From Chloroflexaceae bacterium (GTDB lineage Bacteria; Chloroflexota; Chloroflexia; Chloroflexales; Chloroflexaceae): a stretch of 64,000 bases of DNA. Location: positions 5,565 through 69,564 of the forward strand of contig JAAUSQ010000001.1 in NCBI GenBank assembly GCA_012033195.1. Reading direction: 5' to 3'. A model generated the notes under the pieces. The model saw only the letters and a list, made by a program, of their open reading frames with translations, did no database searches and was not told the DNA's origin. Positions within the stretch are counted from its first letter, which is position 1. Every line of letters begins with the position of its first letter. The position numbers and the translations under genes are program-made. Shown here in pieces: positions 1 through 45,112 of this stretch.

Positions 1-1666
1 TCACCACGGCAATCACTTTGCCGCCACGTGCATGCACCTGCTCGATATTGCTGAGCATCTTTTCGTACACGCCATCGCGGGGTGCAATGCAGATTACTGG
101 CATCTGCTCATCAATCAGCGCCACCGGACCGTGCTTCATCTCGCCTGCCGGGTAGCCCTCGGCATGAATATAGCTAATCTCTTTCAGCTTCAGCGCCCCT
201 TCCAGGGCTATCGGGTAGCTCACCTGCCGCCCCAGGTACAGTGTGCTATTGGCAGTGTAATAGCGCTCGGCCAGCATCCGCGCCTGTGCTGCCGTCTTTT
301 CGAGCGTCTGGGCCGCTTTCCCCGGCAGCGTGCCCAGTTCGCGTATGTGCGCCGCAAGCTCTGCCGCCGATAACGTGCCGCGTACTTCTGCCAGACGCAG
401 CGCCAGCAGATAGGCGGTTGCCAGCATGCTGGTAAAGCACTTGGTGGAGGCAACCCCAATTTCGGGGCCAGCGTGCAGATACAGCGCTCCCCCATCGGCG
501 AGGCGGGCCGCCTGACTGCCAACCACATTGACAATCGCCACACTCGGCGCACCCTGGCGGCGGGCCTCTTCCATCGCTGCCAGCGTGTCCACTGTTTCCC
601 CACTCTGGCTGAAGGCGAGCACCATCGCCCCGGCACCGATCACCGGGTCGCGGTAGCGGAACTCGCTGCCATAGTCTACCTCGACCCGCACCCGCGCCAG
701 CTTTTCAATCATAAACTTGCTGACAAGCGCCGCGTGCCACGCCGTTCCACACGCCACCGCATAGATCCGGTCGATGCCGCGCAACTGCGCCTCGTCCAGC
801 AGCAGGTCGTCGAGGCGCAGCGTGCCCGCTTCCAGATCGACGCGTCCGCGCAGTACATCCATCAGGGCACGGGGTTGCTCATACATCTCTTTCTGCATAA
901 AGTGGTCGAAGTCACCCTTCGCAGCGCTCTCGGTGTCCCAGGTTACCAGCGTGGGCAGACGCTCAATGCTGGCCCCCTCGCGGTTGCGAAGCACAACGCC
1001 CTCGGCGCTCACAACAGCCATATCGCCATCTTCCAGAAAGATAAGCTGGTGCGTGTAGCCCAAGACTGCCGGAATATCGGAGGCGATCAGCGTTTCGCCT
1101 GCGCCAAGCCCGATCACCACGCCGCCCGCATTGCCAAGCCGTGCGGCCACCAGTTTATCTGGCTCGTGGATACTGAAGGCGACCACCGCATTGCCGCCGT
1201 GCAGGTCGTGCAGGGTACGCTGCACAGCGTCGGTCAGGTCGTGGGTGTCGCGGTAATATGCGCCAACCAAGTGCGCGATGACCTCGGTATCGGTCTGAGA
1301 GTGGAAGGTGTGGCCCGCCGCGATCAGGCGCTCTTTCAATTCTTGATAGTTTTCGACAATGCCATTCTGCACCACAACAATGGTACCGCTCTCGTCGCGG
1401 TGGGGGTGCGCATTCGCTTCGGTGACCGCGCCGTGGGTGGCCCAGCGCGTGTGGCCTAGCCCGATCTGACCGGCCAAGGTGCGCCCGTTCAGGCGGTCGG
1501 TGAGGAAGTGCAGCTTGCCCACGCTACGCTCGATCTGTAGGCCGGCTGTGGCATCGTAGACGGCAATGCCCGCCGAGTCGTAGCCCCGATATTCCAGCCG
1601 TTGCAAGCCCTGCAATACCACCTGCTGCGCCTGCCGTGTGCCAACATAGCCAACAATACCACACAT
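1..1666 (-). CDS. glmS: glutamine--fructose-6-phosphate aminotransferase GlmS (C-terminal end lies beyond window start)
   Basis: Minus-strand frame is open from ATG 1666-1664 to the window edge. It is absent from the ORF track because there is no in-window stop. Translation starts MCGIVGYVGTRQAQQVVLQGLQRLEYRGYDSAGIAV, the Cys1 class-II amidotransferase N-terminus typical of GlmS. GGAGG lies 9 nt upstream. Confidence 0.9.
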   Translation of the reverse strand, partial: MCGIVGYVGTRQAQQVVLQGLQRLEYRGYDSAGIAVYDATAGLQIERSVGKLHFLTDRLNGRTLAGQIGLGHTRWATHGAVTEANAHPHRDESGTIVVVQNGIVENYQELKERLIAAGHTFHSQTDTEVIAHLVGAYYRDTHDLTDAVQRTLHDLHGGNAVVAFSIHEPDKLVAARLGNAGGVVIGLGAGETLIASDIPAVLGYTHQLIFLEDGDMAVVSAEGVVLRNREGASIERLPTLVTWDTESAAKGDFDHFMQKEMYEQPRALMDVLRGRVDLEAGTLRLDDLLLDEAQLRGIDRIYAVACGTAWHAALVSKFMIEKLARVRVEVDYGSEFRYRDPVIGAGAMVLAFSQSGETVDTLAAMEEARRQGAPSVAIVNVVGSQAARLADGGALYLHAGPEIGVASTKCFTSMLATAYLLALRLAEVRGTLSAAELAAHIRELGTLPGKAAQTLEKTAAQARMLAERYYTANSTLYLGRQVSYPIALEGALKLKEISYIHAEGYPAGEMKHGPVALIDEQMPVICIAPRDGVYEKMLSNIEQVHARGGKVIAVV

Positions 1667-1889
1667 AGTTTATTGTCCTCCATAGGATAAAAAGGCTTAC
1701 CAATAGAACACACCGAGTCGGAACCAGATGGCAGGCACGGGTATACAACGTTGCACCCTGTACTGTGCATGCACAGCTCAGGGTTGGCGGCAGACCGCAC
1801 CCGGCTCTGGTTCATCCAGATACTATGAAAACTATGTGGGGAGAAGTGACACAATTAAACTGTGTCGGAATGGTGGCGCACTGTGTTTT

Positions 1890-2088
1890 GCTTTGTCCTG
1901 GCCCGTCACCGGGAGGCGTTGTCGAAACACGCAACAGGATGTGGCCTGATCCTGGGAGGCATCCGCTGAACCTTCGATTTTCCGGGTGCTCGTCTGGCGA
2001 CCCGTTACCCCCACCATGCGGCGGGGAACCTCCACCTCGTCAACTTCGGCCCATCAGCAAATGGCTGGCGGACGAAGTCCATGCGCTT
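1890..2088 (-). ncRNA. glmS ribozyme (GlcN6P-activated self-cleaving riboswitch) in the glmS leader
   Basis: Minus strand reads AA/AGCGCAUGGACUUCGUCCGCC...CCGAAGUUGACGAGGUGGAGGUU...AAUCGAAGGUUCAGCGGAUGCCUCCCAGG. This matches the conserved glmS ribozyme blocks recalled from memory: the A/GCGCC cleavage site, UUGACGAGGAUGGAGGUU and UUCGGCGGAUGCCUCCCGGC. It is upstream of and co-oriented with glmS. Boundaries are approximate. Confidence 0.8.
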
Positions 2089-2257
2089 TATGTGTCCTGG
2101 TCGGTAGGTGTTTATCCCTCCTGGCAGTGCTCCCCCGCACTACCCGCTTGATTGAATGCGCTCTGTGAAGACTATAACACACCCATGCGCTGCCGTCCAA
2201 TCTTGGAAACGTGCTACCATGCCTGCATTGTTTATCTGTACATGGAGGTTGACGACA

Positions 2258-7471: not shown

Positions 7472-10400
7472 ATGAACAAAACCGCACCCGGCATCTATGA
7501 GCAAACGCTCTATGACCCACGGTACGAGCACGATGCTTGCGGCATCGGCTTTGTGGCTCGTATCAATGGTCAGCCCGATCACGCCCTTCTCACGAAGGCG
7601 TTGACCGCACTGGCGAACCAGAAACATCGCGGCGCAGTAGCAGCCGATGCCAAAACCGGCGATGGTTCGGGCATTCTGACGCAGCTTCCGAAAACATTGT
7701 TGCTGCGCGAGTTAAAACGCCAGGGTGTGGAGGCCGATGCTGCGGATCTTGCGGTGGGGATGCTGTTCCTACCGCAGGATGCAGCCGGTGTGGAAGCAAG
7801 CCAGCAAATTATTGAAGCCGAGTTGACGCAGCGCGGCCTGACGGTGCTGGCGTGGCGCACTGTGCCCGCCGACGACGAGGCGCTGGGGCAGCGGGCACTG
7901 GAGATGAAGCCGACGATCAAGCAGGTGCTTATCACGCGGCCTGCTGGCTTGAACGACGAAAACTACGAACGCACGCTGTATGTAGCACGCAAGGCGATGG
8001 AACGCACCTTCACTGAGCAGCAGCTTTCAACCTATATTCCGTCGCTATCGTCGCGTACCATCGTTTACAAAGGCCTGTTAATGGGGCCGTATCTGGCAGA
8101 TTTTTATTACGACTTGCGCGACCCTGACTATACCACCGCGCTGGCTGTCTACCACGAGCGCTATTCAACCAACACGTTCCCAACCTGGGAGCGTGCACAG
8201 CCATTCCGAATGCTCTCGCATAACGGCGAGATTAACACCTTGCAGGGTAATGTCAACTGGATGCGTGCCCGCGAGAGCCGCCTGTACTTCCCGCAGATTT
8301 CCGGTCTGGCCCGTGAGTTGCCCACCGATGTTACGCCGGTGATCGCCCCACGCGGCAGCGACTCGGCGGCCCTCGATAACGCGCTGGAACTGATGGTACA
8401 GGGTGGGCGCGATATTCGCCACGCGATGGCTATGCTGGTGCCCGAAGCGTGGGAGCACGTGCCCGATATGGATGCCAACCTGCGTGCCTTTTATCAGTAT
8501 CACGCATGCCTCAGCGAGCCGTGGGACGGCCCGGCTGGTCTATCGTTCTCGGATGGACGCATTGTCGGCTCCACGCTCGACCGCAATGGCCTGCGTCCGG
8601 CACGCTTCCTGGTCACCCGCGATGGTTTGGTGGTCAGCGGCAGCGAGGCGGGGGTGGTTGAGGTGGACGATGCCGAAGTGATGCTGCGGGGACGGCTTGG
8701 CCCTGGGCAGATGCTGGCGGTTGACACACAGGCGGGGCGTGTCTATACCAATGCCGATATCAAGGCCGAACTTGCCAACCGTCAGCCGTATGCGGAATGG
8801 ATCGCGCAGCATATGCGACGGCTGGAAGATTGCCCCCTGCCAACCGATTACACGGTGGAACACAACGATGCCGAGCGCCGCACCGCGTTGCAGATGGCCT
8901 TCGGGTATACCAGCGAAGAGCTAAACGTTATTCTCAAGCCGATGCAGCGCGATGGCAAAGAGCCGGTCGGTTCGATGGGCGACGATACGCCGCTCACGGT
9001 GTTCTCGCAGGTCGATCCGGGTCGCCCGATTTACCAGTTCTTCAAGCAACGGTTTGCCGAAGTGACCAACCCGCCGATGGACCCGCTGCGCGAAGAAATG
9101 GTGATGTCGCTCAGCATTGGCCTGGGTAAGCGCGGCGACCTGCTGGACGAAACGCCAGAGCACGCGCATTTGCTGCAACTCACCTCGCCATTCCTGACCA
9201 ATGTGCAACTTGAGGCAATCCGCGCTGTTGACGACCCGCTCTTCAAGACAGCAACAATTTATGCGCTTCAGCCGGTTGGTGCGGATGAGGACGACGAAGC
9301 CGCCGAGCGTGTGATGCGTCGGGAGCTTGACCGCCTGCGCCGCGAGGCTGTGCAGGCCGTGCGCGATGGAGCCGCGATCATTATCATCAGTGACCGGGGC
9401 GTAGACGAGCAGCACGCCCCGATCCAGACGATGATTGCACTCGGTGCCGTCCACCATCACCTGATCCGGTCGGGACTGCGAACCAATGTCAGCCTGGTGG
9501 TGGAAAGCGGCGAACCGCGTGAAGTGCATCATATGGCCTGTCTGATCGGGTATGGAGCCGAGGCAATCAATCCGTATCTGGCACTTGAAACGGTCCGGGC
9601 AATGGCCTTCGGGTTGAGCCGGGGCAGGGGGGCAACCAACGGCACCAACGGCAACGGGGTGCACAGTAATGGCAACGGCTCACACAGCGCCGATCTGCTT
9701 GGGGACGATCTGGTGCGAACGGAAGAGGCCGAGGCCGAGCGCAACTATATTGAGGCGCTTGAAAAGGGCGTACTCAAGATTATGTCGAAGATGGGCATTT
9801 CGCCGCTCGATAGCTACTGTGGGGCGCAGATCTTCGAGATCATCGGACTGGATGATGCGATCATCAACGCGTGTTTTGCAGGCACCCCTCGCCTGTTGGT
9901 GGCATCGGCTACCGCGAACTGGCGCACAAAGTGCGCTCACGCCATGCGCGGGCCTTCAACCTGCCCGAAGGCGAAAAGGTTGATCTGCCGCACCCTGGCT
10001 TCTACAAGTTCAAGAAGAACGGCGAAGTGCACAGCTATAGCCCGCAGGTCATCCACGCAGCACACAAGGCGGCTCGCCACGCGATGGACGTAACAGGCGG
10101 CTTGTACCCGTCGATGGACACGGCCCTGCCGCAGTTCCAGGAGGGCTACGGCCACTACCGCGAGTACTCGGCCCTGATTGACCAGCGCCCGCCAACCGAA
10201 CTGCGCGACCTGCTGGAGATGCTGCCGGCTGGCCCACCGGTGCCGCTCGAAGCAGTGGAGCCAATAGAGGCCATTCTGAAGCGCTTCAGCACGGCAGCGA
10301 TGAGCCTGGGCGCAACCAGCACCGAGGCCCACGAAACACTGGCGATTGCGATGAACCGGCTGGGGGGGATGAGCAACAGCGGCGAAGGCGGCGAGGACGA

Positions 10401-12204
10401 GGCCCGCTTCCGTGACGAGCGCAACAGCAAGATCAAGCAGGTGGCATCGGGGCGCTTCGGTGTCACTCCGGCCTACCTTGCCAATGCTGCCGAGCTTCAG
10501 ATCAAGATGGCGCAGGGCAGCAAGCCGGGTGAGGGCGGTCAGCTTCCGGGGCACAAGGTTAGCGCCGAGATTGCCCGCATTCGCCATACCACGCCGGGGG
10601 TATCGCTGATTAGCCCGCCGCCGCACCACGATATCTATAGCATCGAAGACCTGGCACAACTGATTTACGACTTGAAGCAGGTCAATGCCGGGGCGCTGGT
10701 GTCGGTCAAGCTGGTGGCGACGGCAGGCGTGGGCACGATTGCAGCGGGGGTAGCGAAGGGCTACGCCGACTTGATCCTGATCAGCGGGCACAACGGCGGC
10801 ACGGGTGCTTCCCCGCTCAGCAGCATCAAGAATGCCGGCGTATCGTGGGAACTGGGCCTTGCCGAAACCCAGCAGACCCTGATCATCAACGGGTTGCGTG
10901 GGCGGGTACGTTTGCGTGCCGACGGTGGCTTGCAGAACGGGCGCGACGTGCTGATCGCGGCGCTGCTTGGTGCCGATGAATATTCATTTGGCACTACCGC
11001 CCTGATTGCCGAAGGGTGTTTGATGGCGCGGGCCTGCCACAACAATACCTGTCCAGTGGGCATCGCCACCCAGCGCCTCGACCTGCGCGCCAAGTTTCCT
11101 GGTACACCCGAAATGGTCATGGCCTTCTTCCGCTATGTCGCGCACGAAATCCGCGAACTGCTGGCAAGCCTGGGCCTGCGCTCGCTGGAAGAGGCGGTCG
11201 GGCGCACCGACCTGCTGCGACAGCGCACCACGGGCGTTGCCGAGGCCGATGCGCTGCGGCTGCACAAGTTGCTGGCGCTGCCGGCCAACTTTGCACAGCA
11301 GGAAATCCGGCACGCGGGCGAGCGCAACCCGCTTCCGGTCGGTGAGACGTTGAACGACCGTCTGTTGCAGGATGCACAGCCTGCCCTGGAGGGGCGCGGC
11401 TCGGTTGAACTGAATTACACCATCCGCAACTGTGAGCGGACGGTTGGGGCGCGGCTGTCGGGTGTGATCGGGCAGATGTATGGCGACCATGGCCTACCAT
11501 CTGACACCATCCGCATCAACCTGCGGGGGAGTGCAGGCCAGAGCTTCGGCGCATTTAATGCACCGGGCGTTAGCTTCCATCTGATTGGTGAAGCCAACGA
11601 CTATGTTGGTAAGGGTATGGCAGGTGGCACGATTGCTATTCACCCGTCGCGTGAGGCCGCCTATGCATGGCACGAGAATGTCATTGCAGGTAACACCATT
11701 CTGTATGGGGCGACGGGTGGCGAACTCTACCTTGCTGGACGGGTTGGCGAGCGCTTTGCCGTCCGCAACAGCGGTGCTACTGTGGTGGTCGAAGGCGTGG
11801 GCGACCACGGCTGCGAGTATATGACGGGTGGCACAGCGGTCATTTTAGGATCGACGGGCTACAACTTTGGCGCAGGTATGACCGGCGGCGTGGCCTTTGT
11901 GCTCGATGTTGAAGAGCGGCTGCCCATCCGCTACAACCGTCAGCTAGTGCAGCTTGATCGGCTAAACCAGCAGGATCAGGAGCGACTGCGCGAACTGGTG
12001 CAGCGCCACGCCGACCTGACCGGAAGCCCGCGTGCTGCCGAGATCCTGGCAAACTGGGCCGCCTATGTCCCGCTGTTCTGGCGTGTGATGCCACGAGAAA
12101 TGGTGGCCCGCATCGAGGCGCAGAACGCAGGCACCCAGGAGGGCGGCACGGCGACCTATGACGATGCCACCCACCCCGCACCGAAGGCAGCGGCAGTAGT
12201 GTAA
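7472..12204 (+). pseudogene. gltB: glutamate synthase large subunit (GltB / Fd-GOGAT-like) interrupted by one single-base frameshift (likely assembly error)
   Basis: ORFs 7472..10093 and 9871..12204. Ntn-amidotransferase start ...YEHDACGIGFV. FMN domain motifs SKPGEGGQLPG and ISGHNGGTGASP. C-terminal GXGXG domain VVEGVGDHGCEYMTGG. The frames join at the CCCC run 9885-9888 (...INACFAGTP|SPVGGIGYRELAHK...). The span is 4733 nt, one base short. No gltD follows. Confidence 0.9.
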
Positions 12205-13698: not shown

Positions 13699-13727
13699 TT
13701 GACAACTGTACAGGGCCATGCTATAGT
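13699..13727 (+). promoter_or_regulatory. sigma70-type promoter for the HTH gene
   Basis: TTGACA (13699-13704), 17-nt spacer, TATAGT (13722-13727). The ATG follows 26 nt later. Confidence 0.6.
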
Positions 13728-13752
13728 GCCTATCAGAAAGGATAGGGAGTCT

Positions 13753-13962
13753 ATGCTACAGCGAGAACCTGTGCATCCAGGTGCCATCTATTCACGTGAA
13801 GAGGCCGCCGAAGTGCTCGGCATCAGCCTCAGTACATTAAAGCGATTGATTGTCGCAGGGCAGCTTGAAGTCAGCCGCCCCTCTAGTATTCGACGAATCT
13901 TTATCAAGGGTTCCAGCATCCTGAAAATGCTGGAAGAAACCAGATTGGAAGTTATGCGATGA
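13753..13962 (+). CDS. excisionase/MerR-type helix-turn-helix DNA-binding protein (69 aa)
   Basis: ORF 13699..13962 trimmed to ATG 13753, which has AGGGAG upstream. IYSREEAAEVLGISLSTLKRLIVAGQLEV is a typical excisionase-family HTH. Confidence 0.65.
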   Translation: MLQREPVHPGAIYSREEAAEVLGISLSTLKRLIVAGQLEVSRPSSIRRIFIKGSSILKMLEETRLEVMR

Positions 13963-14579: not shown

Positions 14580-15875
14580 CTACTCCTGCTCTGGCGCGGG
14601 CTGTGGTCGGTGGTGGTTGGCAAAGCCGAAGTTCTGCCCATTCTCGCGGTGGGTACCCGTAAAGCCGATGGGGGCCTTGCTCTCCATATGTTCGCGCAGT
14701 GCTTCAACCTGGGCCAGCATCACCTGCTCCATCGCGCTGGCCTTCCCCTGGTTGACCCAGGCCATCATTGAGGAGAGGAACAGTTCCTTCAGATAGGCAA
14801 ACGAAAAGCCGTGTGTCTGCTCTGCTACTGCTAGCAAACCCTGCTCAGGAAGCTGTAGCTCGCGCTGGAGCCGCCCATTCCACAGCGCAGTATAGGCGTG
14901 CCGCTCTGGGGTAGCAGGCAGGTCGAAGTGGTACTTGCGATCAAAACGGCTGGGTCGGTCGATAATTGCAACGTCGAGCCGCTCCGGGTGGTTGGTGGTT
15001 GCCAGCGTCACAACACCTTCGTTGCTGGCGAAGCCGTCCAGTTCATTCAGAAAGAACGAGCGGTTGTCATCGTTAATCAGCGCGTCCAAGTCTTCGAGCA
15101 CCAGCAAGCAGGGGGCCTGGTCGCGGGCACGCTGGAAGATGCGGTGAATGTTGTGATGATCGGTGCCGTACTCGGCCTTGAAACTCCGCACATACAGACA
15201 TGGCTGGTTGAGATGGTTGATCAGCGCCTTGACTGCGTGGGTCTTGCCGTTTCCTGGTGGGCCGATAAACAGAATGCCCCGCTTCCAGGGAATACCATAG
15301 TGATGGTAGGTGTCACGTGCCGCAAAAAAGCTCTCAAGGTCGGTGCGGATGTCGTGCTTGAGCGCCCCCTTAAGAATCAGGTTCTCGAAGGTAATACCCT
15401 TCAGTTCGCGGTACAACTCTTCGCTCTTACTCCAGTGCCCGTTTTCAAAGACGAGTACCTCGCCGCGCACTTCGGTGTGCCACTTGCAGACTGCCGTAAA
15501 AAAGTTGTCTGCAATCTGCTGGGTATCGGCAACAATCCAGTGATACTCGGTATTGCATCCCTCGTGGCTCCACGCGAGGCGCAACACCTTGAGCGTGTGG
15601 CCCTGCCATGTAATATTAATCCAGGCGGTATCCACCGCACGCTCAATGCGCTCGTAGGTGCTTTGCCATTCAGTGCGTACAATGCTATGTGCTTGCAGAT
15701 CGATATTGGCAGTGCAGTGCTGTGCTCCGGTATATCCCTCCAGGTAGAAGGCGTGGTCGGTGGTGGTCAGGATCGCCTTGCCTGCAAAGTGTTTGGTGAG
15801 TTGCTGTCCAACGTGATAGGCGATCAGGTTTACTGGCAGCGCCAGCGTCTCGCGGATAAATGCTGTATCTACCAT
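14580..15875 (-). CDS. AAA+ family ATPase (classic AAA clade) with an uncharacterised about 190-aa N-terminal domain
   Basis: Walker A GPPGNGKT, Walker B LLVLEDLD, second region of homology TTNHPERLDVAIIDRPSRFD. Co-oriented with and immediately downstream of the tRNA array. Confidence 0.85.
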   Translation of the reverse strand: MVDTAFIRETLALPVNLIAYHVGQQLTKHFAGKAILTTTDHAFYLEGYTGAQHCTANIDLQAHSIVRTEWQSTYERIERAVDTAWINITWQGHTLKVLRLAWSHEGCNTEYHWIVADTQQIADNFFTAVCKWHTEVRGEVLVFENGHWSKSEELYRELKGITFENLILKGALKHDIRTDLESFFAARDTYHHYGIPWKRGILFIGPPGNGKTHAVKALINHLNQPCLYVRSFKAEYGTDHHNIHRIFQRARDQAPCLLVLEDLDALINDDNRSFFLNELDGFASNEGVVTLATTNHPERLDVAIIDRPSRFDRKYHFDLPATPERHAYTALWNGRLQRELQLPEQGLLAVAEQTHGFSFAYLKELFLSSMMAWVNQGKASAMEQVMLAQVEALREHMESKAPIGFTGTHRENGQNFGFANHHRPQPAPEQE

Positions 15876-16113: not shown

Positions 16114-16207
16114 TGGTCAGGCCGGTCGGATTTGAACCGACACCTCCGACATGGCACGTCGGCAGGCTGCCCTTGACGCCACGACCGCTCGAACACCCTC
16201 GCGCCTG
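16114..16207 (-). tRNA. tRNA-Gly(GCC)-like, aberrant 5' half (possible pseudogene)
   Basis: The 3' part is canonical: anticodon arm CCGAC-GUGCCAU-GUCGG, T arm GUCGG-UUCAAAU-CCGAC, 3' acceptor CGGCCUG-A73-CCA. The best 5' acceptor strand (CAGGCGC) pairs only 5/7. About 38 nt occupy the place of a roughly 20-nt D region. Confidence 0.45.
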
Positions 16208-16211
16208 TCTA

Positions 16212-16286
16212 TGGTCCATCCGGCAGGTTTCGATCCTGCGACCCCCGGTGTTTCAGACCAGTGCTCTGCCGCTGAGCTACGGATGG
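16212..16286 (-). tRNA. tRNA-Phe(GAA), CCA encoded, variant T-loop
   Basis: Acceptor CCAUCCG/CGGAUGG, A73. Anticodon loop CUGAAAC. D arm GCUC-AGCGGCA-GAGC. T loop AUCGAAA (A54 instead of U54). Confidence 0.8.
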
Positions 16287-16287
16287 C

Positions 16288-16364
16288 TGGTACCCCCGGC
16301 ACGACTCGAACGTGCAACCCTCGCTGTGTAAGAGCGATGCTCTGACCAATTGAGCTACGTGGGC
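16288..16364 (-). tRNA. tRNA-Val(UAC), CCA encoded
   Basis: Acceptor GCCCACG/CGGGGGU (one A-G mismatch, one G-U), A73. Anticodon arm UCGCU-CUUACAC-AGCGA. T loop UUCGAGU. Confidence 0.8.
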
Positions 16365-16365
16365 A

Positions 16366-16442
16366 TGGTCGGACTGGCTGGACTTGAACCAGCAACCCCC
16401 TGTGTATCAGACAGATGCGCTGTCCTATTGCGCCACAGTCCG
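16366..16442 (-). tRNA. tRNA-Ile(GAU), CCA encoded
   Basis: Acceptor CGGACUG/CAGUCCG perfect (C1-G72), A73. Anticodon loop CUGAUAC. D arm GCGC-AAUAGGACA-GCGC. T loop UUCAAGU. Confidence 0.85.
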
Positions 16443-16446
16443 GCAA

Positions 16447-16523
16447 TGGTGCGCGGGAGGGGATTCGAACCCCTACTGTACGGTGTTTGAAACCGTTGCC
16501 TCTCCCAGTTGGGCTACCCTTGC
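16447..16523 (-). tRNA. class-I tRNA with Leu anticodon CAA (short 5-nt variable region), weak acceptor stem
   Basis: Anticodon arm ACGGU-UUCAAAC-ACCGU. T arm AGGGG-UUCGAAU-CCCCU. A73-CCA. Acceptor GCAAGGG/CCCGCGC has two mismatches. No long variable arm. Confidence 0.55.
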
Positions 16524-16526
16524 ACA

Positions 16527-16598
16527 TCGGTCCGGCGAGACTCGAACCCGCAACCCGTTGTATATAAGACAACCGCTCTGCCATTGAGCTACAGGCCA
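16527..16598 (-). tRNA. tRNA-Ile(UAU), the only array member without encoded CCA
   Basis: Anticodon arm GUUGU-CUUAUAU-ACAAC (perfect). D arm GCUC-AAUGGCA-GAGC. T loop UUCGAGU. Acceptor UGGCCUG/CGGACCG (one mismatch, two G-U), A73 followed by UGU. Confidence 0.65.
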
Positions 16599-16600
16599 TC

Positions 16601-16679
16601 TGGCTGGCCCGGCGGGACTCGAACCCGCACGTGGGTGACTTAGAAGGCACCTGCTCTCCTTCCATTGAGCTACGAGCCA
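16601..16679 (-). tRNA. tRNA-Arg(UCU)-like with one extra base in the anticodon stem
   Basis: Acceptor UGGCUCG/CGGGCCA, G73-CCA. D arm GCUC-AAUGGAAGGA-GAGC. Anticodon region GGUGC-CUUCUAA-G(U)CACC has a bulged U. T loop UUCGAGU. Confidence 0.6.
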
Positions 16680-16691
16680 TATTCTGGTGTG

Positions 16692-16767
16692 TGGTGCTCC
16701 CGGCGGGACTCGAACCCGCACCACACGGTGTTTAAGACCGTTGCCTCTGCCATTGGGCTACCGGAGC
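16692..16767 (-). tRNA. class-I tRNA with Leu anticodon UAA (short 5-nt variable region)
   Basis: Anticodon arm ACGGU-CUUAAAC-ACCGU (perfect). T arm GCGGG-UUCGAGU-CCCGC. A73-CCA. Acceptor GCUCCGG/CGGGAGC (one G-G mismatch). 3-bp D stem. Confidence 0.65.
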
Positions 16768-16771
16768 ACAG

Positions 16772-16858
16772 TGGTGTGTCAGGTCGGATTCGAACCGACT
16801 CAGCCAAACGGCGACGATATTACAGACCGCTGAGGCTCTCCCGCGCCCGTGCTGACAC
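16772..16858 (-). tRNA. tRNA-Tyr(GUA), class II, CCA encoded
   Basis: Acceptor GUGUCAG/CUGACAC perfect, A73. Anticodon loop CUGUAAU. 14-nt variable arm CGCCGUUUGGCUGA. T loop UUCGAAU. The D region is somewhat irregular. Confidence 0.75.
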
Positions 16859-16899
16859 ATACAATATCAATGATTCTTATTTGAACACATCTTTGCCAA

Positions 16900-16977
16900 T
16901 GGTGCCCCCGGCAGGACTCGAACCTGCACTGCACGGTGTCTGAGGCCGCTACCTCTGCCGGATTGGGTTACAGGGGC
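16900..16977 (-). tRNA. class-I tRNA with Leu anticodon CAG (short 5-nt variable region)
   Basis: Acceptor GCCCCUG/CGGGGGC, A73-CCA. Anticodon arm GCGGC-CUCAGAC-ACCGU (31-39 C-A mismatch). T arm GCAGG-UUCGAGU-CCUGC. The D arm is paralogous to those of 16447 and 16692. Confidence 0.65.
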
Positions 16978-16979
16978 AC

Positions 16980-17055
16980 TGGAACAGGAGCCTGGATTCG
17001 AACCAGGATCAGCGATATTCAGCGCATCGTGTCCTCCCATTGAGCCGACTCCTGT
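16980..17055 (-). tRNA. tRNA-like gene, anticodon probably CUG (Gln) but with a non-canonical loop (G33) and U73
   Basis: Perfect acceptor ACAGGAG/CUCCUGU and perfect T arm CCUGG-UUCGAAU-CCAGG plus CCA. Anticodon arm CGAUG-CGCUGAA-UAUCG has G at position 33. The D stem has one mismatch. Confidence 0.45.
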
Positions 17056-17056
17056 G

Positions 17057-17131
17057 TGGCTGGGGGCGAAGGACTCGAACCCTCATCAGCCGGGTCAAAG
17101 CCGGGTATCCTGCCGTTAGACGACCCCCCCA
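17057..17131 (-). tRNA. tRNA-Gln(UUG), one extra G in the 5' acceptor run
   Basis: U1-A72 and G73 as in bacterial tRNA-Gln. 3' acceptor GCCCCCA-G-CCA. The 5' strand is U followed by G7 (C7 run 17124-17130), one base too many. Anticodon loop CUUUGAC. T loop UUCGAGU. Confidence 0.7.
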
Positions 17132-17138
17132 GTATGTG

Positions 17139-17213
17139 TGGTCCCCCTGGAAGGATTTGAACCTCCAACCCTGCGGGTAAGAGCCGCCTGCGCTGCCGTT
17201 GCGCCACAGAGGG
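17139..17213 (-). tRNA. tRNA-Lys(CUU), CCA encoded
   Basis: Acceptor CCCUCUG/CAGGGGG, A73. Anticodon loop CUCUUAC. D arm GCGC-AACGGCA-GCGC. T loop UUCAAAU. Confidence 0.8.
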
Positions 17214-17216
17214 AAC

Positions 17217-17291
17217 TGGTACCGCCAGAGGGACTCGAACCCCCACCTCATCGCTTAAAAGGCGCGTGCTCTTGCCTTGAGCTACAGCGGT
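17217..17291 (-). tRNA. tRNA-Lys(UUU), weak anticodon stem
   Basis: Acceptor ACCGCUG/UGGCGGU, A73-CCA. Anticodon loop CUUUUAA on a stem with only 3 Watson-Crick pairs (CGCGC/GCGAU). D arm GCUC-AAGGCAA-GAGC. T loop UUCGAGU. Confidence 0.65.
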
Positions 17292-17292
17292 G

Positions 17293-17367
17293 TGGAGCCT
17301 CGCGCAGGAATTGAACCCGCAACCATCGCCTTACAAGAGCGTTGCTCTACCATTGAGCTAGCGAGGC
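17293..17367 (-). tRNA. tRNA-Thr(UGU), CCA encoded
   Basis: Acceptor GCCUCGC/GCGAGGC perfect, U73. Anticodon loop CUUGUAA. D arm GCUC-AAUGGUA-GAGC. T loop UUCAAUU. Confidence 0.8.
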
Positions 17368-17371
17368 ATTG

Positions 17372-17446
17372 TGGTAACGGAGGGTGGACTTGAACCACCG
17401 GCCTCCAGGATATGAACCTGTTGCGCTGCCGCTGCGCCACTCCGTC
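17372..17446 (-). tRNA. tRNA-Met(CAU), elongator type (or Ile2/lysidine substrate)
   Basis: Acceptor GACGGAG/CUCCGUU, A73-CCA. Anticodon loop UUCAUAU. Lacks the initiator GGG/CCC anticodon-stem signature and the C1-A72 mismatch. T loop UUCAAGU. Confidence 0.75.
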
Positions 17447-17455
17447 ACAGAAGGT

Positions 17456-17483
17456 GTGGCCCGCTGGAGGCGGTGCGGGCCAC
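17456..17483 (-). other. GC-rich 9-bp hairpin inside the longest intra-array spacer
   Basis: GTGGCCCGC / GCGGGCCAC perfect inverted repeat with a 10-nt loop. It lies in the 48-nt gap between tRNA-Glu and tRNA-Met. There is no U-tract. Confidence 0.5.
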
Positions 17484-17494
17484 GCGAAAGATTG

Positions 17495-17569
17495 TGGCAA
17501 CCCCGGCGGGAATTGAACCCGCGCTGCTCGCTTGAAAGACGAGCGTCCTGACCATTAGACGACGGGGCC
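17495..17569 (-). tRNA. tRNA-Glu(UUC), CCA encoded
   Basis: Acceptor GGCCCCG/CGGGGUU, G73. Anticodon loop CUUUCAA. D arm GUCU-AAUGGUCA-GGAC (Glu-like). T loop UUCAAUU. Confidence 0.8.
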
Positions 17570-17571
17570 AC

Positions 17572-17645
17572 TGGTGGATCGGCGGGGAGTTGCACCCCGA
17601 TCTCTGCGGTGCAAGCGCAGTATCCTCCGATTAGACGACCAACCC
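17572..17645 (-). tRNA. tRNA-Ala(UGC) with G3:U70, variant T-loop UGCAACU
   Basis: Acceptor GGGUUGG/CCGAUCC contains the G3:U70 alanine identity pair, A73-CCA. Anticodon arm CUGCG-CUUGCAC-CGCAG. T arm CGGGG-UGCAACU-CCCCG (G at position 55). Confidence 0.8.
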
Positions 17646-17649
17646 ACAT

Positions 17650-17724
17650 TGGCGCTCCAGAAGGGTTCCGACCCCTCTACTCCTGTTCGACAGACAGGGA
17701 TGATAGCCACTTCACCACTGGAGC
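17650..17724 (-). tRNA. tRNA-Asp(GUC), variant T-loop GUCGGAA
   Basis: Acceptor GCUCCAG/CUGGAGC perfect, G73-CCA. Anticodon arm CCUGU-CUGUCGA-ACAGG. T loop GUCGGAA (G54, G58). Confidence 0.75.
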
Positions 17725-17728
17725 ATAC

Positions 17729-17805
17729 TGGCCTCGCCAGAAGGACTCGAACCTTCAGCCTCCACCTTCGCACGGTGGCACCCTTTCCGCTTGGGCGATG
17801 GCGAG
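17729..17805 (-). tRNA. tRNA-Arg(GCG), CCA encoded
   Basis: Acceptor CUCGCCA/UGGCGAG perfect, G73. Anticodon arm CCACC-GUGCGAA-GGUGG (perfect stem; G34 rather than the usual A34/I34). T loop UUCGAGU. Confidence 0.75.
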
Positions 17806-17808
17806 GAA

Positions 17809-17881
17809 TGGCTGCCGCACCCTCGAACCGGGCACCGCTGCCTTCGGATGGCAGCGCCCTTTCCTGCTGGGCGCTACGGCA
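17809..17881 (-). tRNA. tRNA-Arg(CCG) with a truncated T arm
   Basis: Acceptor UGCCGUA/UGCGGCA, G73-CCA. Anticodon arm CUGCC-AUCCGAA-GGCAG. D arm GCCC-AGCAGGAAA-GGGC. Only 18 nt lie between the anticodon stem and the acceptor, giving a 3-bp CCC/GGG stem around GGUUCGA. Confidence 0.55.
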
Positions 17882-17885
17882 ACAT

Positions 17886-17959
17886 TGGCAGCGAGGAAGG
17901 GACTCGAACCCCTACCACGTGAGTAACAATCACGCGCCCTACCGTTAGACGACCTCGCT
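17886..17959 (-). tRNA. tRNA-Asn(GUU), CCA encoded
   Basis: Acceptor AGCGAGG/CCUCGCU perfect, G73. Anticodon arm CGUGA-UUGUUAC-UCACG. T loop UUCGAGU. Confidence 0.8.
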
Positions 17960-17963
17960 CCAC

Positions 17964-18040
17964 TGGCAGATGGGAGTGGACTCGAACCACTACGACGCAG
18001 TGTTGGAGACTGCTGCTCTGCCCCATTGAGCTACCCATCT
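17964..18040 (-). tRNA. tRNA-Trp(CCA), CCA encoded
   Basis: Acceptor AGAUGGG/CCCAUCU perfect, G73. Anticodon arm GCAGU-CUCCAAC-ACUGC. D arm GCUC-AAUGGGGCA-GAGC. T loop UUCGAGU. Confidence 0.9.
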
Positions 18041-18043
18041 GTA

Positions 18044-18121
18044 TGGTCGAGGCGACTGGATTCGAACCAGTGATCACTGCGCTCCAAACGCAGGATGTTG
18101 ACCAAGCTACACCACACCTCG
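18044..18121 (-). tRNA. tRNA-Pro(UGG), CCA encoded
   Basis: C1-G72 and A73 as in bacterial tRNA-Pro. Acceptor CGAGGUG/CGCCUCG. Anticodon arm CUGCG-UUUGGAG-CGCAG. T loop UUCGAAU. Confidence 0.85.
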
Positions 18122-18125
18122 GCAA

Positions 18126-18213
18126 TGGCGGGAGAAGCAGGAGTTGCACCTGCAAGGCATAAGCTCGCCCGTTTTCAAAGCGGGTGCCGTCGCCTGCCCT
18201 CGGCTAGACCTTT
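18126..18213 (-). tRNA. tRNA-Ser(UGA)-like, class II, with unpaired 5' acceptor strand and variant T-loop (possible pseudogene)
   Basis: Ser-like D arm UA-GCC-GAGGGCAGGCGAC-GGC. Anticodon loop UUUGAAA. 14-nt variable arm. T arm GCAGG-UGCAACU-CCUGC. 3' strand UUCUCCC-G73-CCA. The 5' strand reads AAAGGUC instead of the expected GGGAGAA. Confidence 0.45.
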
Positions 18214-18220
18214 CATCTTG

Positions 18221-18311
18221 TGGCGGAGGATGGGCGGATCGAACACCCGCGCCAGTCTGCCCGGCGGCCTTCTCTTAGCAGGAGAGCACATTGCCCCTCT
18301 GTCAATCCTCC
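18221..18311 (-). tRNA. tRNA-Ser(GCU), class II, CCA encoded
   Basis: Acceptor GGAGGAU/AUCCUCC perfect, G73. Anticodon loop CUGCUAA. 21-nt variable arm. 3-bp D stem. T loop UUCGAUC. Confidence 0.8.
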
Positions 18312-18315
18312 GCAA

Positions 18316-18390
18316 TGGACACCCCGACTGGATTTGCACCAGCGTCTGGCGGGTTGCAACCGCCTGCCTGTTCTGCTCGGCAACGGGGTG
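18316..18390 (-). tRNA. tRNA-Cys(GCA), variant T-loop UGCAAAU
   Basis: Acceptor CACCCCG/CGGGGUG perfect, U73 (the Cys discriminator), CCA. Anticodon arm GGCGG-UUGCAAC-CCGCC. T arm GCUGG-UGCAAAU-CCAGU (G at position 55). Confidence 0.75.
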
Positions 18391-18424
18391 CCAGAAATGG
18401 CGATGCAGTTGTTAAGGTTCCGGG

Positions 18425-18501
18425 TGGGGTGACGGACGAGATTCGAACTCGTGTCCTCTGTGTTCACAGCACAGCGCTCTCGCCACTGAGCTAACGCCAC
18501 C
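18425..18501 (-). tRNA. tRNA-His(GUG) with encoded G-1 and C73, CCA encoded
   Basis: G-1 plus GUGGCGU / CCGUCAC-C73-CCA (one U-C mismatch at 7-66). Anticodon arm CUGUG-CUGUGAA-CACAG. D arm GCUC-AGUGGCGA-GAGC. T loop UUCGAAU. Confidence 0.85.
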
Positions 18502-18583: not shown

Positions 18584-18612
18584 AGTGTAGCATAGCTCTT
18601 TATAGTTGTCAA
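18584..18612 (-). promoter_or_regulatory. sigma70-type promoter of the tRNA array
   Basis: Minus strand has TTGACA (18612-18607), a 17-nt spacer and TACACT (18589-18584). It lies about 75-80 nt upstream of the tRNA-His 5' end. The leader contains the hairpin CGACCG-N6-CGGTCG (18521-18538). Confidence 0.65.
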
Positions 18613-43563: not shown

Positions 43564-43676
<113 letters not shown>

Positions 43677-43792
43677 AGTGTGCCACCGTCGCGGTTTCCG
43701 GGCATATTGTAATATCCAGGAATCGCAGATTGAAAGGTAGCTGGCTCTCATCCGACAGGTGGGGGCTTTTTTGATGCCCTAATCTGAGATAA

Positions 43793-45112
<1,320 letters not shown>

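What the first reader, a model, noticed from the sequence alone, without database searches (positions are those of the whole stretch)
16447..16977. Three paralogous class-I tRNAs carrying leucine anticodons (CAA, UAA, CAG) with no long variable arm
The genes at 16447-16523, 16692-16767 and 16900-16977 share several features:
- the anticodon stem ACGGU/ACCGU (degenerate, GCGGC/ACCGU, in the third);
- the loop context N-U-NNN-A-C;
- a 3-bp D stem;
- A73-CCA.

All three have only a 5-nt variable region (ACAGU, GUGGU, GCAGU). All known bacterial tRNA-Leu are class II, with a long variable arm. Within this array only Ser and Tyr are class II, and no class-II Leu gene is present.

Two explanations are possible. 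LeuRS of this organism may accept class-I tRNAs; in E. coli, A73 and tertiary contacts rather than the arm are the main determinants. Otherwise these molecules are charged with something else or act as decoys.
Basis: partly seen in the sequence, partly recalled or inferred. Interest (0 to 1): 0.75.

Follow-up and report, generated by a model that had tools for sequence, protein, structure and literature searches.

The report
Short-arm leucine tRNAs in tRNA array
Three leucine tRNA genes that lack the usual long extra arm are real, but they belong to a large family already documented in actinobacteria, common in phages and mobile tRNA gene arrays, and most likely charged with leucine.

Summary
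Three 76-78-nt tRNA genes with anticodons CAA, UAA and CAG lie on the minus strand at the stated coordinates. Each has a 5-nt variable region, a 3-bp D stem and A73-CCA. They sit in a 2.4-kb array of about 28 tRNA genes in a Chloroflexaceae chromosome.

The premise that all known bacterial tRNA-Leu are class II is wrong. Streptomyces coelicolor has an essential type I tRNA-Leu(CAA) that its LeuRS leucylates (Fan et al. 2019).

The three genes belong to one large family:
- 251 non-redundant short tRNA-Leu were collected from phage contigs, actinobacterial chromosomes and tRNA arrays of several phyla.
- Of 203 non-redundant tRNAs that carry the family's D-arm motif, 202 have one of the six Leu anticodons.
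- The family keeps the elements E. coli LeuRS reads: A73, U8-A14, A15-U48, G18G19 and A20a.
- Cloverleaf covariation is strong.

A model built without the window sequences scores the three genes at 74-83 bits, above every other gene in the array.

The most likely reading is that these are supernumerary, horizontally acquired tRNA-Leu charged by the host LeuRS. The CAG copy arose by an anticodon shift. The CAA copy has two acceptor-stem mismatches and may be impaired. This is a new member of a known kind, of modest interest.

The parts
16447..16523 (-). Type I (short-variable-loop) tRNA-Leu, anticodon CAA, 77 nt with encoded CCA. It has two acceptor-stem mismatches (A3.C70, A4.G69) and may be impaired.
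   Evidence: ARAGORN; Rfam tRNA 47.4 bits; family model R1 74.3 bits. The same mismatches occur in the sister assembly L126.
16692..16767 (-). Type I tRNA-Leu, anticodon UAA, 76 nt with encoded CCA. It has one acceptor mismatch (G6.G67) and is the best-scoring copy.
   Evidence: ARAGORN; Rfam 56.6 bits; R1 82.8 bits. Five pairs show compensatory changes against the counterpart in L216.
16900..16977 (-). Type I tRNA-Leu, anticodon CAG, 78 nt with encoded CCA and a C31.A39 mismatch. It is the positional counterpart of a type I tRNA-Leu(CAA) in a related array, which implies an anticodon shift.
   Evidence: ARAGORN; Rfam 45.5 bits; R1 76.7 bits. Alignment with the L216 Gln(CUG)-Leu(CAA) pair.
16114..18500 (-). 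Long tRNA gene array: 25 ARAGORN genes plus Tyr(GUA) and two degenerate tRNA-like remnants. All 20 amino acids are covered, and all genes but one have an encoded CCA.
16772..16858 (-). Class II tRNA-Tyr(GUA), missed by ARAGORN.
   Evidence: Read from the sequence; R1 hit at 16775-16858, 24.1 bits.
18221..18311 (-). Class II tRNA-Ser(GCU), 91 nt.
   Evidence: ARAGORN.
18584..18612 (-). Promoter-like site, TTGACA-17-TACACT with an upstream TG, about 85 nt upstream of the first gene, tRNA-His. It is a candidate promoter for the whole array.
   Evidence: Consensus scan, 10 of 12 matches. This is a pattern match only.
16859..16899 (-). AT-rich spacer between Leu(CAG) and Tyr, holding a weaker promoter-like site (TTGGCA-18-AATCAT).

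Best explanation
The three genes are genuine members of a widespread, conserved family of short-variable-loop (type I) tRNA-Leu. They lie in a horizontally acquired long tRNA gene array (L-array) in a Chloroflexaceae chromosome.

The family has lost only the long variable arm. That arm is not an identity element for the bacterial LeuRS enzymes studied. The family keeps A73, U8-A14, the A15-U48 Levitt pair, G18G19, A20a and the Leu-type 3-bp D arm.

The most likely mechanism has three steps. The array is transcribed as one unit, probably from the promoter-like site upstream of tRNA-His. The tRNAs are processed. The host LeuRS then leucylates the UAA and CAG copies, and perhaps the CAA copy, which read UUA/UUG and CUG as extra tRNA-Leu.

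The CAG copy arose from a CAA-type type I gene by a change in the anticodon. Such a change is harmless because LeuRS does not read the anticodon. The CAA copy carries two acceptor-stem mismatches and is probably weakened or inactive.

Shown here: gene structure, family membership, family-wide covariation, conservation of identity elements, and near-exclusive association with Leu anticodons. Inferred: transcription, charging by this host's LeuRS, and use in translation.
For: 1. Structure. ARAGORN and Rfam agree on three class I cloverleaves with Leu anticodons.

2. Family size and spread. The D-arm motif GCCCAA-N1-4-GGCAGAGGC hit at least 120 viral contigs. A stricter form hit at least 120 genome contigs.

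3. Anticodons. Of 203 non-redundant motif-bearing tRNAs, 202 carry one of the six Leu anticodons, and all are 73-79 nt.

4. Identity elements among 251 non-redundant short tRNA-Leu:
- A14A15 in 250
- A15:U48 in 248
- A73 in 241
- a 3-bp D stem in 229
- a variable region of 5 nt in 192 and 4 nt in 46
The 49 members that lack the search motif show the same pattern. G18, G19 and A20a are invariant in alignments A2 and A3.

5. D loop. The Leu-type D loop occurs in 95% of short Leu and 59% of class II Leu, but in at most 7% of any other isotype in the same loci.

6. Covariation. Across 113 sequences, 97.5% of cells are paired and 19 of 20 pairs show compensatory changes. The covariation score is 0.914, against 0.21 for shuffles and at most 0.16 for slid registers.

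7. Family model. Model R1, built without the window sequences, scores the three at 82.8, 76.7 and 74.3 bits. The next best array tRNA scores 60.7.

8. Literature.
- S. coelicolor type I tRNA-Leu(CAA) has a 5-nt variable loop, could not be deleted, and is leucylated by its LeuRS (PMC6614811).
- E. coli Leu identity rests on A73, A15-U48, G18G19 and A20a, and the long arm is dispensable (PMC9976931).
- In Anabaena, 23 of 26 array tRNAs are aminoacylated in vivo (PMC8421152). All four Leu genes of that array are short, so at least one short Leu is charged there.

9. Selection in this lineage. Compared with the Chloroflexaceae array L216, the UAA copy differs by compensatory double changes in four anticodon-stem pairs and one T-stem pair.
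Against: - There are no expression or charging data for this organism.
- Acceptance of type I tRNA-Leu depends on the LeuRS. E. coli LeuRS and one Streptomyces LeuRS could not charge the S. coelicolor type I tRNA (PMC6614811). The Chloroflexaceae LeuRS was not available to examine.
- The CAA copy has two acceptor mismatches and the UAA copy has one. In the family, 238 of 251 members have none.
- The array holds several degenerate members. Gly, Gln(CUG), Cys and Ser fall below the Rfam threshold, and there are two tRNA-like remnants. Some decay is therefore under way.
- Between the two near-identical assemblies, the CAA copy differs at T31C, which breaks a pair.
Confidence: 0.7

Rival explanations
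1. The three genes are decaying relics. The array was acquired horizontally and is silent, or this host's LeuRS cannot charge type I tRNA-Leu. The genes would then be neutral passengers on their way to becoming pseudogenes.
For: - Acceptor mismatches occur in the CAA copy (two) and the UAA copy (one). The CAG copy has a C31.A39 mismatch.
- Other array members are degenerate.
- The difference between the two assemblies in the CAA copy breaks a pair.
- Some LeuRS enzymes cannot charge type I tRNA-Leu (PMC6614811).
- In Anabaena, 3 of 26 array genes are pseudogenes (PMC8421152).
Against: - All identity elements and the encoded CCA are intact in all three copies.
- R1 scores of 74-83 bits lie well above those of the other array tRNAs.
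- Compensatory changes against L216 show structure was maintained in this lineage.
- A strong promoter-like site lies upstream of the array.
- The array persists in at least two Chloroflexaceae species and two assemblies.
Confidence: 0.2
2. The tRNAs are made but serve something other than ordinary Leu decoding. They could be charged with another amino acid (deliberate mistranslation), or act as uncharged decoys or replacements that resist tRNA-directed toxins or nucleases.
For: - Phage-encoded tRNAs have been proposed to evade tRNA-targeting defences (PMC10264068, title and abstract).
- The family is abundant in phage contigs.
- The neighbouring AAA ATPase resembles the defence protein IetA (68 bits).
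- Aberrant acid-gel mobility of some Anabaena array tRNAs (Phe, Ile) raised the question of misacylation (PMC8421152).
Against: - Of 203 non-redundant tRNAs with the family D-arm motif, 202 carry Leu anticodons, across both codon boxes. That is what an anticodon-blind LeuRS plus selection on the genetic code would produce.
- The same family is a syntenic, vertically inherited chromosomal gene in Corynebacterium and Micrococcaceae. In S. coelicolor a type I tRNA-Leu(CAA) could not be deleted (PMC6614811).
- No dedicated synthetase gene lies in the window.
- No mistranslation was found in Anabaena (PMC8421152).
Confidence: 0.08
3. This is an artefact: a class II tRNA-Leu misread because of an assembly error or a wrong fold register.
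For: None was found.
Against: [quoted passage not shown]
- An independent assembly (GCA_012031155.1) has the same CAA gene.
- Hundreds of homologues have the same geometry with covariation support.
Confidence: 0.01

Closest known systems
Type I tRNA-Leu(CAA) of Streptomyces coelicolor (Fan, Huang, Ji and Wang, NAR 2019, PMC6614811)
   Same: It is a bacterial tRNA-Leu with a 5-nt variable loop (ACAGC there; ACAGU, GUGGU and GCAGU here). It has the U8-A14 element and A73-CCA, and it coexists with class II tRNA-Leu. One bacterial LeuRS leucylates both types.
   Different: The Streptomyces gene is a single chromosomal gene that could not be deleted, and it has C48. Here there are three paralogues with U48, in a mobile tRNA array of a different phylum. 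They carry three different anticodons, including a CUN-box one. I could not obtain the S. coelicolor sequence to score it with my model.
[quoted passage not shown] PCC 7120 plasmid delta (PMC8421152; Tran et al. 2016, PMC4758250)
   Same: - There are more than 20 densely packed tRNA genes on one strand.
- The array includes non-canonical and degenerate members.
- Gene order is partly shared (Met-Thr; Gln-Gln-Leu).
- All four Leu genes of the Nostoc array are also short, 75-78 nt.
   Different: This array is chromosomal and in Chloroflexaceae, a phylum that the 2021 survey did not list among those with L-arrays. Regulation and induction are unknown here. None of the array papers I could read mentions the short-arm Leu feature.
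Phage-encoded 75-nt tRNA-Leu of actinophages (e.g. Streptomyces phages Karimac, Starbow and Tomas, Gordonia phage Phendrix, Mycobacterium phage Kykar)
   Same: They are 74-82% identical to the window's UAA copy over most of the gene, and GenBank annotates them as tRNA-Leu. They have the same D arm and short variable region.
   Different: They are carried by phage genomes rather than a bacterial chromosome. Their charging has not been tested, as far as I could find.
Canonical bacterial class II tRNA-Leu
   Same: They share A73, U8-A14, A15-U48, G18G19, A20a and a 3-bp D stem. The D loop is nearly identical: GAAUGGCAGA in class II against CAAUGGCAGA here.
   Different: They have a variable arm of 9-25 nt with a stem. 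Here the variable region is 5 unpaired nucleotides.
Animal mitochondrial tRNA-Leu (type I)
   Same: It has a short variable loop and A73.
   Different: It has a different, relaxed core. S. coelicolor LeuRS does not charge it (PMC6614811), so the resemblance is convergent.

Membership tests
Bacterial/phage type I (short-variable-loop) tRNA-Leu family | Variable region of 4-5 unpaired nucleotides ending in U48, with no variable stem | tested here: met
   ACAGU, GUGGU and GCAGU. In the family the region is 5 nt in 192 and 4 nt in 46 of 251 members.
Bacterial/phage type I (short-variable-loop) tRNA-Leu family | Leu anticodon (NAG or YAA) | tested here: met
   CAA, UAA and CAG. Of 203 non-redundant motif-bearing tRNAs, 202 have Leu anticodons.
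Bacterial/phage type I (short-variable-loop) tRNA-Leu family | Leu-type D arm: 3-bp stem and loop N13-A14-A15-(N)-G18-G19-N-A20a-R-A | tested here: met
   All three copies have it. It occurs in 95% of the family and at most 7% of any non-Leu isotype.
Bacterial/phage type I (short-variable-loop) tRNA-Leu family | High score against a family covariance model built without the query sequences | tested here: met
   R1 scores are 82.8, 76.7 and 74.3 bits. The best other array tRNA scores 60.7.
Bacterial/phage type I (short-variable-loop) tRNA-Leu family | Leucylation by the cognate LeuRS | not testable with these tools
   Shown only for S. coelicolor (PMC6614811). For Anabaena I infer that at least one short Leu is charged in vivo (PMC8421152).
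Canonical class II tRNA-Leu | Long variable arm (more than 10 nt, with a stem) | tested here: not met
Canonical class II tRNA-Leu | E. coli-type LeuRS identity set: A73, A15-U48, G18G19, A20a, U8-A14 | tested here: met
   All are present in the three genes. The identity set is taken from PMC9976931 and PMC6614811.
L-array / tRNA array unit (at least 20 tRNA genes at 2 or more per kb; Tran et al. 2016) | Gene number and density | tested here: met
   There are 25 ARAGORN genes, plus Tyr and two remnants, in 2,387 bp. That is about 10-12 per kb.
L-array / tRNA array unit | Horizontal spread: similar arrays in unrelated taxa and at non-homologous loci | tested here: met
   The closest array, in the Chloroflexaceae MAG Prado088 (L216), has non-homologous flanks. 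Partial matches occur in arrays of Nostoc, Nonomuraea and M. avium plasmids.
L-array / tRNA array unit | Supernumerary to a dispersed housekeeping tRNA set, and conditionally expressed | not testable with these tools
   Only 64 kb of the genome is available, and there are no expression data.
Dedicated mistranslation pairs (tRNA with an anomalous anticodon plus its own synthetase) | A cognate extra aminoacyl-tRNA synthetase gene nearby | tested here: not met
   None of the 19 large window ORFs scanned against Pfam is a synthetase.

The most novel reading that the evidence does not exclude
Loss of the long arm may be an adaptive hallmark of a mobile tRNA-Leu lineage spread by phages and L-arrays. 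It could make these tRNAs insensitive to host or competitor factors that recognise class II tRNA-Leu, such as tRNA-directed nucleases or toxins, while LeuRS still charges them. In this Chloroflexaceae array the lineage would then have displaced the class II Leu genes altogether: a CAA-to-CAG anticodon shift lets armless tRNAs cover the CUG codon as well.
Probability: 0.15. Interest if true: 0.6.

Novelty: new member of a known kind. Interest (0 to 1): 0.3.

Why it matters
For this window the result is mainly a correction. The genes are real and look odd against the textbook rule, but they are not a new kind of molecule.

The wider point is that the rule itself is leaky. A 2023 identity review still states that tRNA-Leu carries a long arm everywhere except animal mitochondria (PMC9976931). 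The scans here show armless tRNA-Leu in three settings:
- as syntenic chromosomal genes in Corynebacterium and Micrococcaceae;
- in many phage contigs;
- in tRNA arrays of cyanobacteria, Chloroflexaceae, Planctomycetota and other phyla.

This matters for three reasons:
- Annotation: isotype models may flag such genes as mismatches.
- LeuRS-tRNA co-evolution: not every LeuRS accepts type I substrates.
- Assessing which genes of horizontally acquired arrays can work in a new host.

The apparent CAA-to-CAG switch is a clean natural example of isoacceptor replacement made possible by an anticodon-blind synthetase.

Tried and rejected
- Single-sequence folding gave energies no better than shuffles and non-cloverleaf minimum-energy structures for two genes. 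I set it aside in favour of comparative evidence.
- Exact-protein look-ups for RuvB and the DUF3095 protein found nothing. The neighbouring AAA ATPase did match, which identified the host as a Chloroflexaceae MAG.
- The 2012 paper on the Anabaena cluster is not held, and the 2021 paper has no text supplements. I therefore could not learn which Anabaena Leu genes are among the three pseudogenes.
- Home-made isotype HMMs on the 5' and 3' segments discriminated poorly overall. They did show that no non-Leu class I isotype matches the 5' halves: the short-Leu model scored 15-23 bits. The next-best isotype scored at most 3.9 bits for the CAA and CAG copies and 11.8 bits for the UAA copy. They are not a substitute for tRNAscan-SE isotype models.
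- A BLAST hit between the UAA copy and an M. avium plasmid tRNA-Arg(UCU) looked like a counter-example. That gene has an ordinary 4-bp D arm, so it is not a family member.
- One apparent 'Val' with the family motif was an error in my parsing of the ARAGORN header. Its anticodon is UAA.
- I checked whether a LeuRS or another synthetase is encoded in the window. None is.
- I considered a link to a defence system through the IetA-like AAA ATPase. No protease partner gene is adjacent, so I left this as a side note.
Full report
**What is in the sequence**

ARAGORN finds 25 tRNA genes in the window, all on the minus strand between 16114 and 18500. Three of them are tRNA-Leu(caa) at 16447-16523, tRNA-Leu(taa) at 16692-16767 and tRNA-Leu(cag) at 16900-16977. 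The Rfam tRNA model scores them 47.4, 56.6 and 45.5 bits against a threshold of 29.

- a 7-bp acceptor stem and U8-A9;
- a 3-bp D stem with loop CAA(N)GGNAGA;
- a 5-bp anticodon stem: ACGGU/ACCGU twice, and GCGGC/ACCGU with a C31.A39 mismatch once;
- the loop context YU-NNN-AC;
- a 5-nt variable region (ACAGU, GUGGU, GCAGU);
- a normal T arm, A73 and an encoded CCA.

There is no room for a long arm.

Two details were not reported. The CAA gene has two adjacent acceptor mismatches (A3.C70, A4.G69), and the UAA gene has one (G6.G67).

**Context**

The window is ordinary chromosomal DNA at about 60% G+C. It holds a glmS ribozyme, a SAM riboswitch, glutamate synthase, ruvB and large surface proteins.

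The AAA ATPase next to the array is identical to NCBI proteins from 'Chloroflexaceae bacterium' MAGs. A second assembly, GCA_012031155.1 (locus L126), is about 98% identical across the aligned stretch, and its contig ends inside the array.

The array is dense: 25 called genes, a class II tRNA-Tyr(GUA) that ARAGORN missed at about 16772-16858, and two degenerate tRNA-like remnants, all in 2.4 kb. It covers all 20 amino acids. This fits the published definition of a tRNA array unit or L-array (PMC4758250, PMC8421152). A good promoter-like site (TTGACA-17-TACACT with TG) lies about 85 nt upstream of the first gene.

**The genes are not unique**

A BLAST of the array against plasmids hit tRNA arrays in Nonomuraea, M. 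avium and Nostoc PCC 7120 plasmids. It also hit single tRNA genes on Tsukamurella and Arthrobacter plasmids. ARAGORN on four of these loci (all but M. avium) finds tRNA-Leu genes of 74-78 nt at or beside the match. All four Leu genes of the well-studied Nostoc/Anabaena trn operon are among them. In the M. avium locus the matched gene is a tRNA-Arg (see 'Dead ends'), and a 76-nt tRNA-Leu(taa) lies about 110 nt from it. These genes share the D arm UAGCCCAAUUGGCAGAGGC.

I then scanned two collections for that motif:
- Public viral contigs gave at least 120 loci.
- One genome per species gave at least 120 loci.

Of 203 non-redundant ARAGORN tRNAs that contain the motif, 202 carry one of the six Leu anticodons, and all are 73-79 nt. 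The single exception is an odd viral gene with anticodon GCC.

Named phages carry the same genes, annotated as tRNA-Leu. Examples are Streptomyces phages Karimac, Starbow and Tomas, Gordonia phage Phendrix and Mycobacterium phage Kykar.

Most genome hits are single chromosomal genes in Actinomycetota. In Micrococcaceae (UAA) and Corynebacterium (CAA) they sit in conserved synteny across species, so they are vertically inherited. Other hits are arrays in cyanobacteria, Planctomycetota, Elusimicrobia, Myxococcota and a second Chloroflexaceae MAG.

**The family is a constrained, functional-looking tRNA**

Among 251 non-redundant short tRNA-Leu:

| Feature | Members with it |
|---|---|
| A14A15 | 250 |
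| A15:U48 | 248 |
| A73 | 241 |
| 3-bp D stem | 229 |
| 5-nt variable region | 192 |
| 4-nt variable region | 46 |
| Perfectly paired acceptor stem | 238 |

The 49 members that lack the search motif were not selected by it, and they show the same features. U8, A14, G18, G19 and A20a are invariant in the alignments.

On 113 sequences the class I cloverleaf is paired in 97.5% of cells, and 19 of 20 pairs show compensatory changes. The covariation score is 0.914, against 0.21 for shuffles and at most 0.16 for slid registers.

I built a covariance model from 101 family members, excluding the window. It scores the three window genes at 82.8, 76.7 and 74.3 bits. These are the top three hits in the array, and the next tRNA scores 60.7.

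**Isotype**

The Leu-type D loop between a 3-bp stem is found in 95% of the short Leu and in 59% of the class II Leu from the same loci. It is found in at most 7% of any other isotype, and in 0% of most. The class II form GAAUGGCAGA and the type I form CAAUGGCAGA differ by one base.

The retained positions are the ones reported as E. coli LeuRS identity elements: A73, the A15-U48 Levitt pair, G18G19, A20a and U8-A14. The long arm and the anticodon are dispensable for that enzyme (PMC9976931; PMC6614811).

The body is tied to six anticodons from two codon boxes that share only A35. This is what an anticodon-blind LeuRS together with selection on the genetic code would produce. Crude isotype HMMs gave no competing class I isotype.

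**Precedent in the literature**

Fan et al. (NAR 2019, PMC6614811) showed the following:
- S. coelicolor has a type I tRNA-Leu(CAA) with a 5-nt variable loop (ACAGC).
- Attempts to delete the gene failed.
- The single LeuRS of the organism leucylates it.
- The number of variable-loop nucleotides matters, not their identity.
- E. coli LeuRS, and a Streptomyces LeuRS lacking the right leucine-specific domain, cannot charge it.

In Anabaena, 23 of the 26 array tRNAs are expressed and aminoacylated in vivo under translational stress (PMC8421152). All four Leu genes there are short, so at least one armless tRNA-Leu is charged in a cyanobacterium. This is my inference.

The statement that all known bacterial tRNA-Leu are class II is therefore wrong. 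It is, however, still repeated in a 2023 review, and none of the array papers I could read comments on the feature.

**History within the array**

The most similar array in the data is in the Chloroflexaceae MAG Prado088 (L216). Several of its tRNAs are 83-89% identical to window genes. Its flanks are not homologous to the window's, so the array is mobile.

L216 carries type I Leu(CAA) and Leu(UAA), and also class II Leu(GAG) and Leu(CAG). The window array has no class II Leu.

The window's Leu(CAG) lies immediately 3' of tRNA-Gln(CUG). That is the position of L216's type I Leu(CAA), and the two genes have the same acceptor 3' strand. The simplest reading is an anticodon change between CAA and CAG in a type I gene.

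Against its L216 counterpart, the window's Leu(UAA) shows compensatory double changes in four anticodon-stem pairs and one T-stem pair. Structure has therefore been maintained in this lineage.

The anticodon arm AACGGU-CUCAAAC-ACCGU also occurs in a chromosomal Nocardioidaceae tRNA-Leu(CAA), and a near-identical one in a viral contig.

**State of the three copies**

The UAA and CAG genes look serviceable, with one non-standard pair each. The CAA gene has two adjacent acceptor mismatches, which only 4 of 251 family members show. The sister assembly has the same mismatches, plus a T31C change that breaks a further pair. I regard this copy as probably weakened.

The array also contains other poor tRNAs. 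This matches the mixture of working genes and pseudogenes reported for Anabaena.

**Conclusion and rival readings**

Best-supported explanation (0.7): these are bona fide type I tRNA-Leu in a horizontally acquired L-array. They are transcribed with the array and leucylated by the host LeuRS. Transcription, charging and use in translation are inferred, not shown.

Rivals:
- They are silent or unchargeable relics in this host (0.2). LeuRS compatibility is not universal, and there are signs of decay.
- They are charged with something else, or act as decoys or toxin-resistant substitutes (about 0.08). The family-wide restriction to Leu anticodons and the vertically inherited chromosomal copies in actinobacteria argue against this. 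It is not testable here.
- They are an artefact (about 0.01). The sequence itself and an independent assembly exclude this.

**Novelty**

This is a new member of a known kind. The instance is new in that it has three paralogues, includes a CUG reader, and lies in a Chloroflexaceae array. The molecule type, its chargeability and the array type are already published. Interest is modest.

The breadth of the family seen in the scans, and the anticodon shift, are the most useful by-products.

**Dead ends**

- Single-sequence folding was uninformative.
- Two exact-protein look-ups failed.
- The 2012 Anabaena paper and the 2021 supplements are not held.
- An apparent Arg(UCU) relative proved to have an ordinary D arm.
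- One 'Val' call with the family motif was an error in my parsing.

Noticed in passing
window 16601-16679 (-): A tRNA with an 8-nt anticodon loop, CUUCUAAG (ARAGORN 'tcta'), on an Arg(UCU)-like body with G73-CCA. It scores 46.6 bits on Rfam tRNA. It could be a one-base insertion that disables an Arg tRNA, or a quadruplet or frameshift reader.
   Followed up: partly
window 16527-16598 (-): tRNA-Ile with anticodon UAU, which is rare in bacteria. It is the only array gene without an encoded CCA, and it has an acceptor mismatch. The M. avium plasmid array (L003) also has an Ile(UAU).
   Followed up: no
window 17812-17881 (-) and 18123-18214 (-): Two degenerate tRNA-like remnants that ARAGORN and Rfam missed. 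The first is Arg(CCG)-like with a 6-bp anticodon stem (R1 12 bits). The second is 77% identical to tRNA-Ser(cga) of the related array L216, but its 5' acceptor strand is broken.
   Followed up: partly
window about 17455-17482: A perfect 9-bp GC-rich hairpin (GTGGCCCGC ... GCGGGCCAC) in the 48-nt gap between tRNA-Glu and tRNA-Met. No T run follows it. Its role is unknown; it could be a processing signal or a repeat element.
   Followed up: no
window 16114-18500 (-): Many array tRNAs begin with a non-G base (C1-G72, A1-U72, U1-A72). Gly, Gln(CUG), Cys and Ser(GCU) score below the Rfam tRNA threshold. The array is a mix of good and poor genes.
   Followed up: partly
window 14580-15875 (-), 13699-13962 (+): The AAA ATPase directly downstream of the array resembles the defence-system ATPase IetA (68 bits) and phage ATPase families, with no protease partner next to it. 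A small excisionase/MerR-like HTH ORF lies nearby. Both hint at a mobile-element context.
   Followed up: partly
window 7472-10093 (+) and 9871-12204 (+): The glutamate synthase large subunit appears split into two overlapping ORFs: GATase_2 plus the central domain, then Glu_synthase plus GXGXG. This could be a frameshift, a sequencing error or a true split.
   Followed up: no
window 1873-2098 (-) and 43566-43677 (+): A glmS ribozyme whose downstream gene runs off the start of the window. A SAM riboswitch lies upstream of a Cys/Met-metabolism PLP enzyme (43826-45112).
   Followed up: no
L216 1494-1674 (-), with 56-131 and 308-381 (-): A second Chloroflexaceae MAG (Prado088) carries a 26-gene array at a non-homologous locus. 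It has both class II Leu(GAG, CAG) and type I Leu(CAA, UAA), so the two types coexist within one array.
   Followed up: yes
L164, L173, L176, L190, L199, L240, L159 (Micrococcaceae); L155, L183, L210, L221, L227, L238 (Corynebacterium): Type I tRNA-Leu(UAA) in Micrococcaceae and tRNA-Leu(CAA) in Corynebacterium sit in kilobases of conserved flanking synteny across species. They are vertically inherited chromosomal genes, not only phage cargo.
   Followed up: partly
L047 228-245 (-), L118 101-118 (-), also L008, L121, L038: In some viral contigs the Leu D arm and 5' anticodon stem are followed, after CUU, by non-tRNA sequence. These may be intron-containing tRNA-Leu(UAA) genes or half-tRNA attachment sites.
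   Followed up: no
L096 1421-1498 (+): The only motif-bearing tRNA without a Leu anticodon. It is a 78-nt viral gene with the Leu-type D arm, an irregular anticodon arm and anticodon GCC.
   Followed up: no
L003 4726-4799 (-), L005 5022-5092 (-): Short 'tRNA-Ser' calls (74 and 71 nt, with no long arm) in the M. avium and Nostoc plasmid arrays. Arm loss may not be confined to Leu, or these may be pseudogenes.
   Followed up: no
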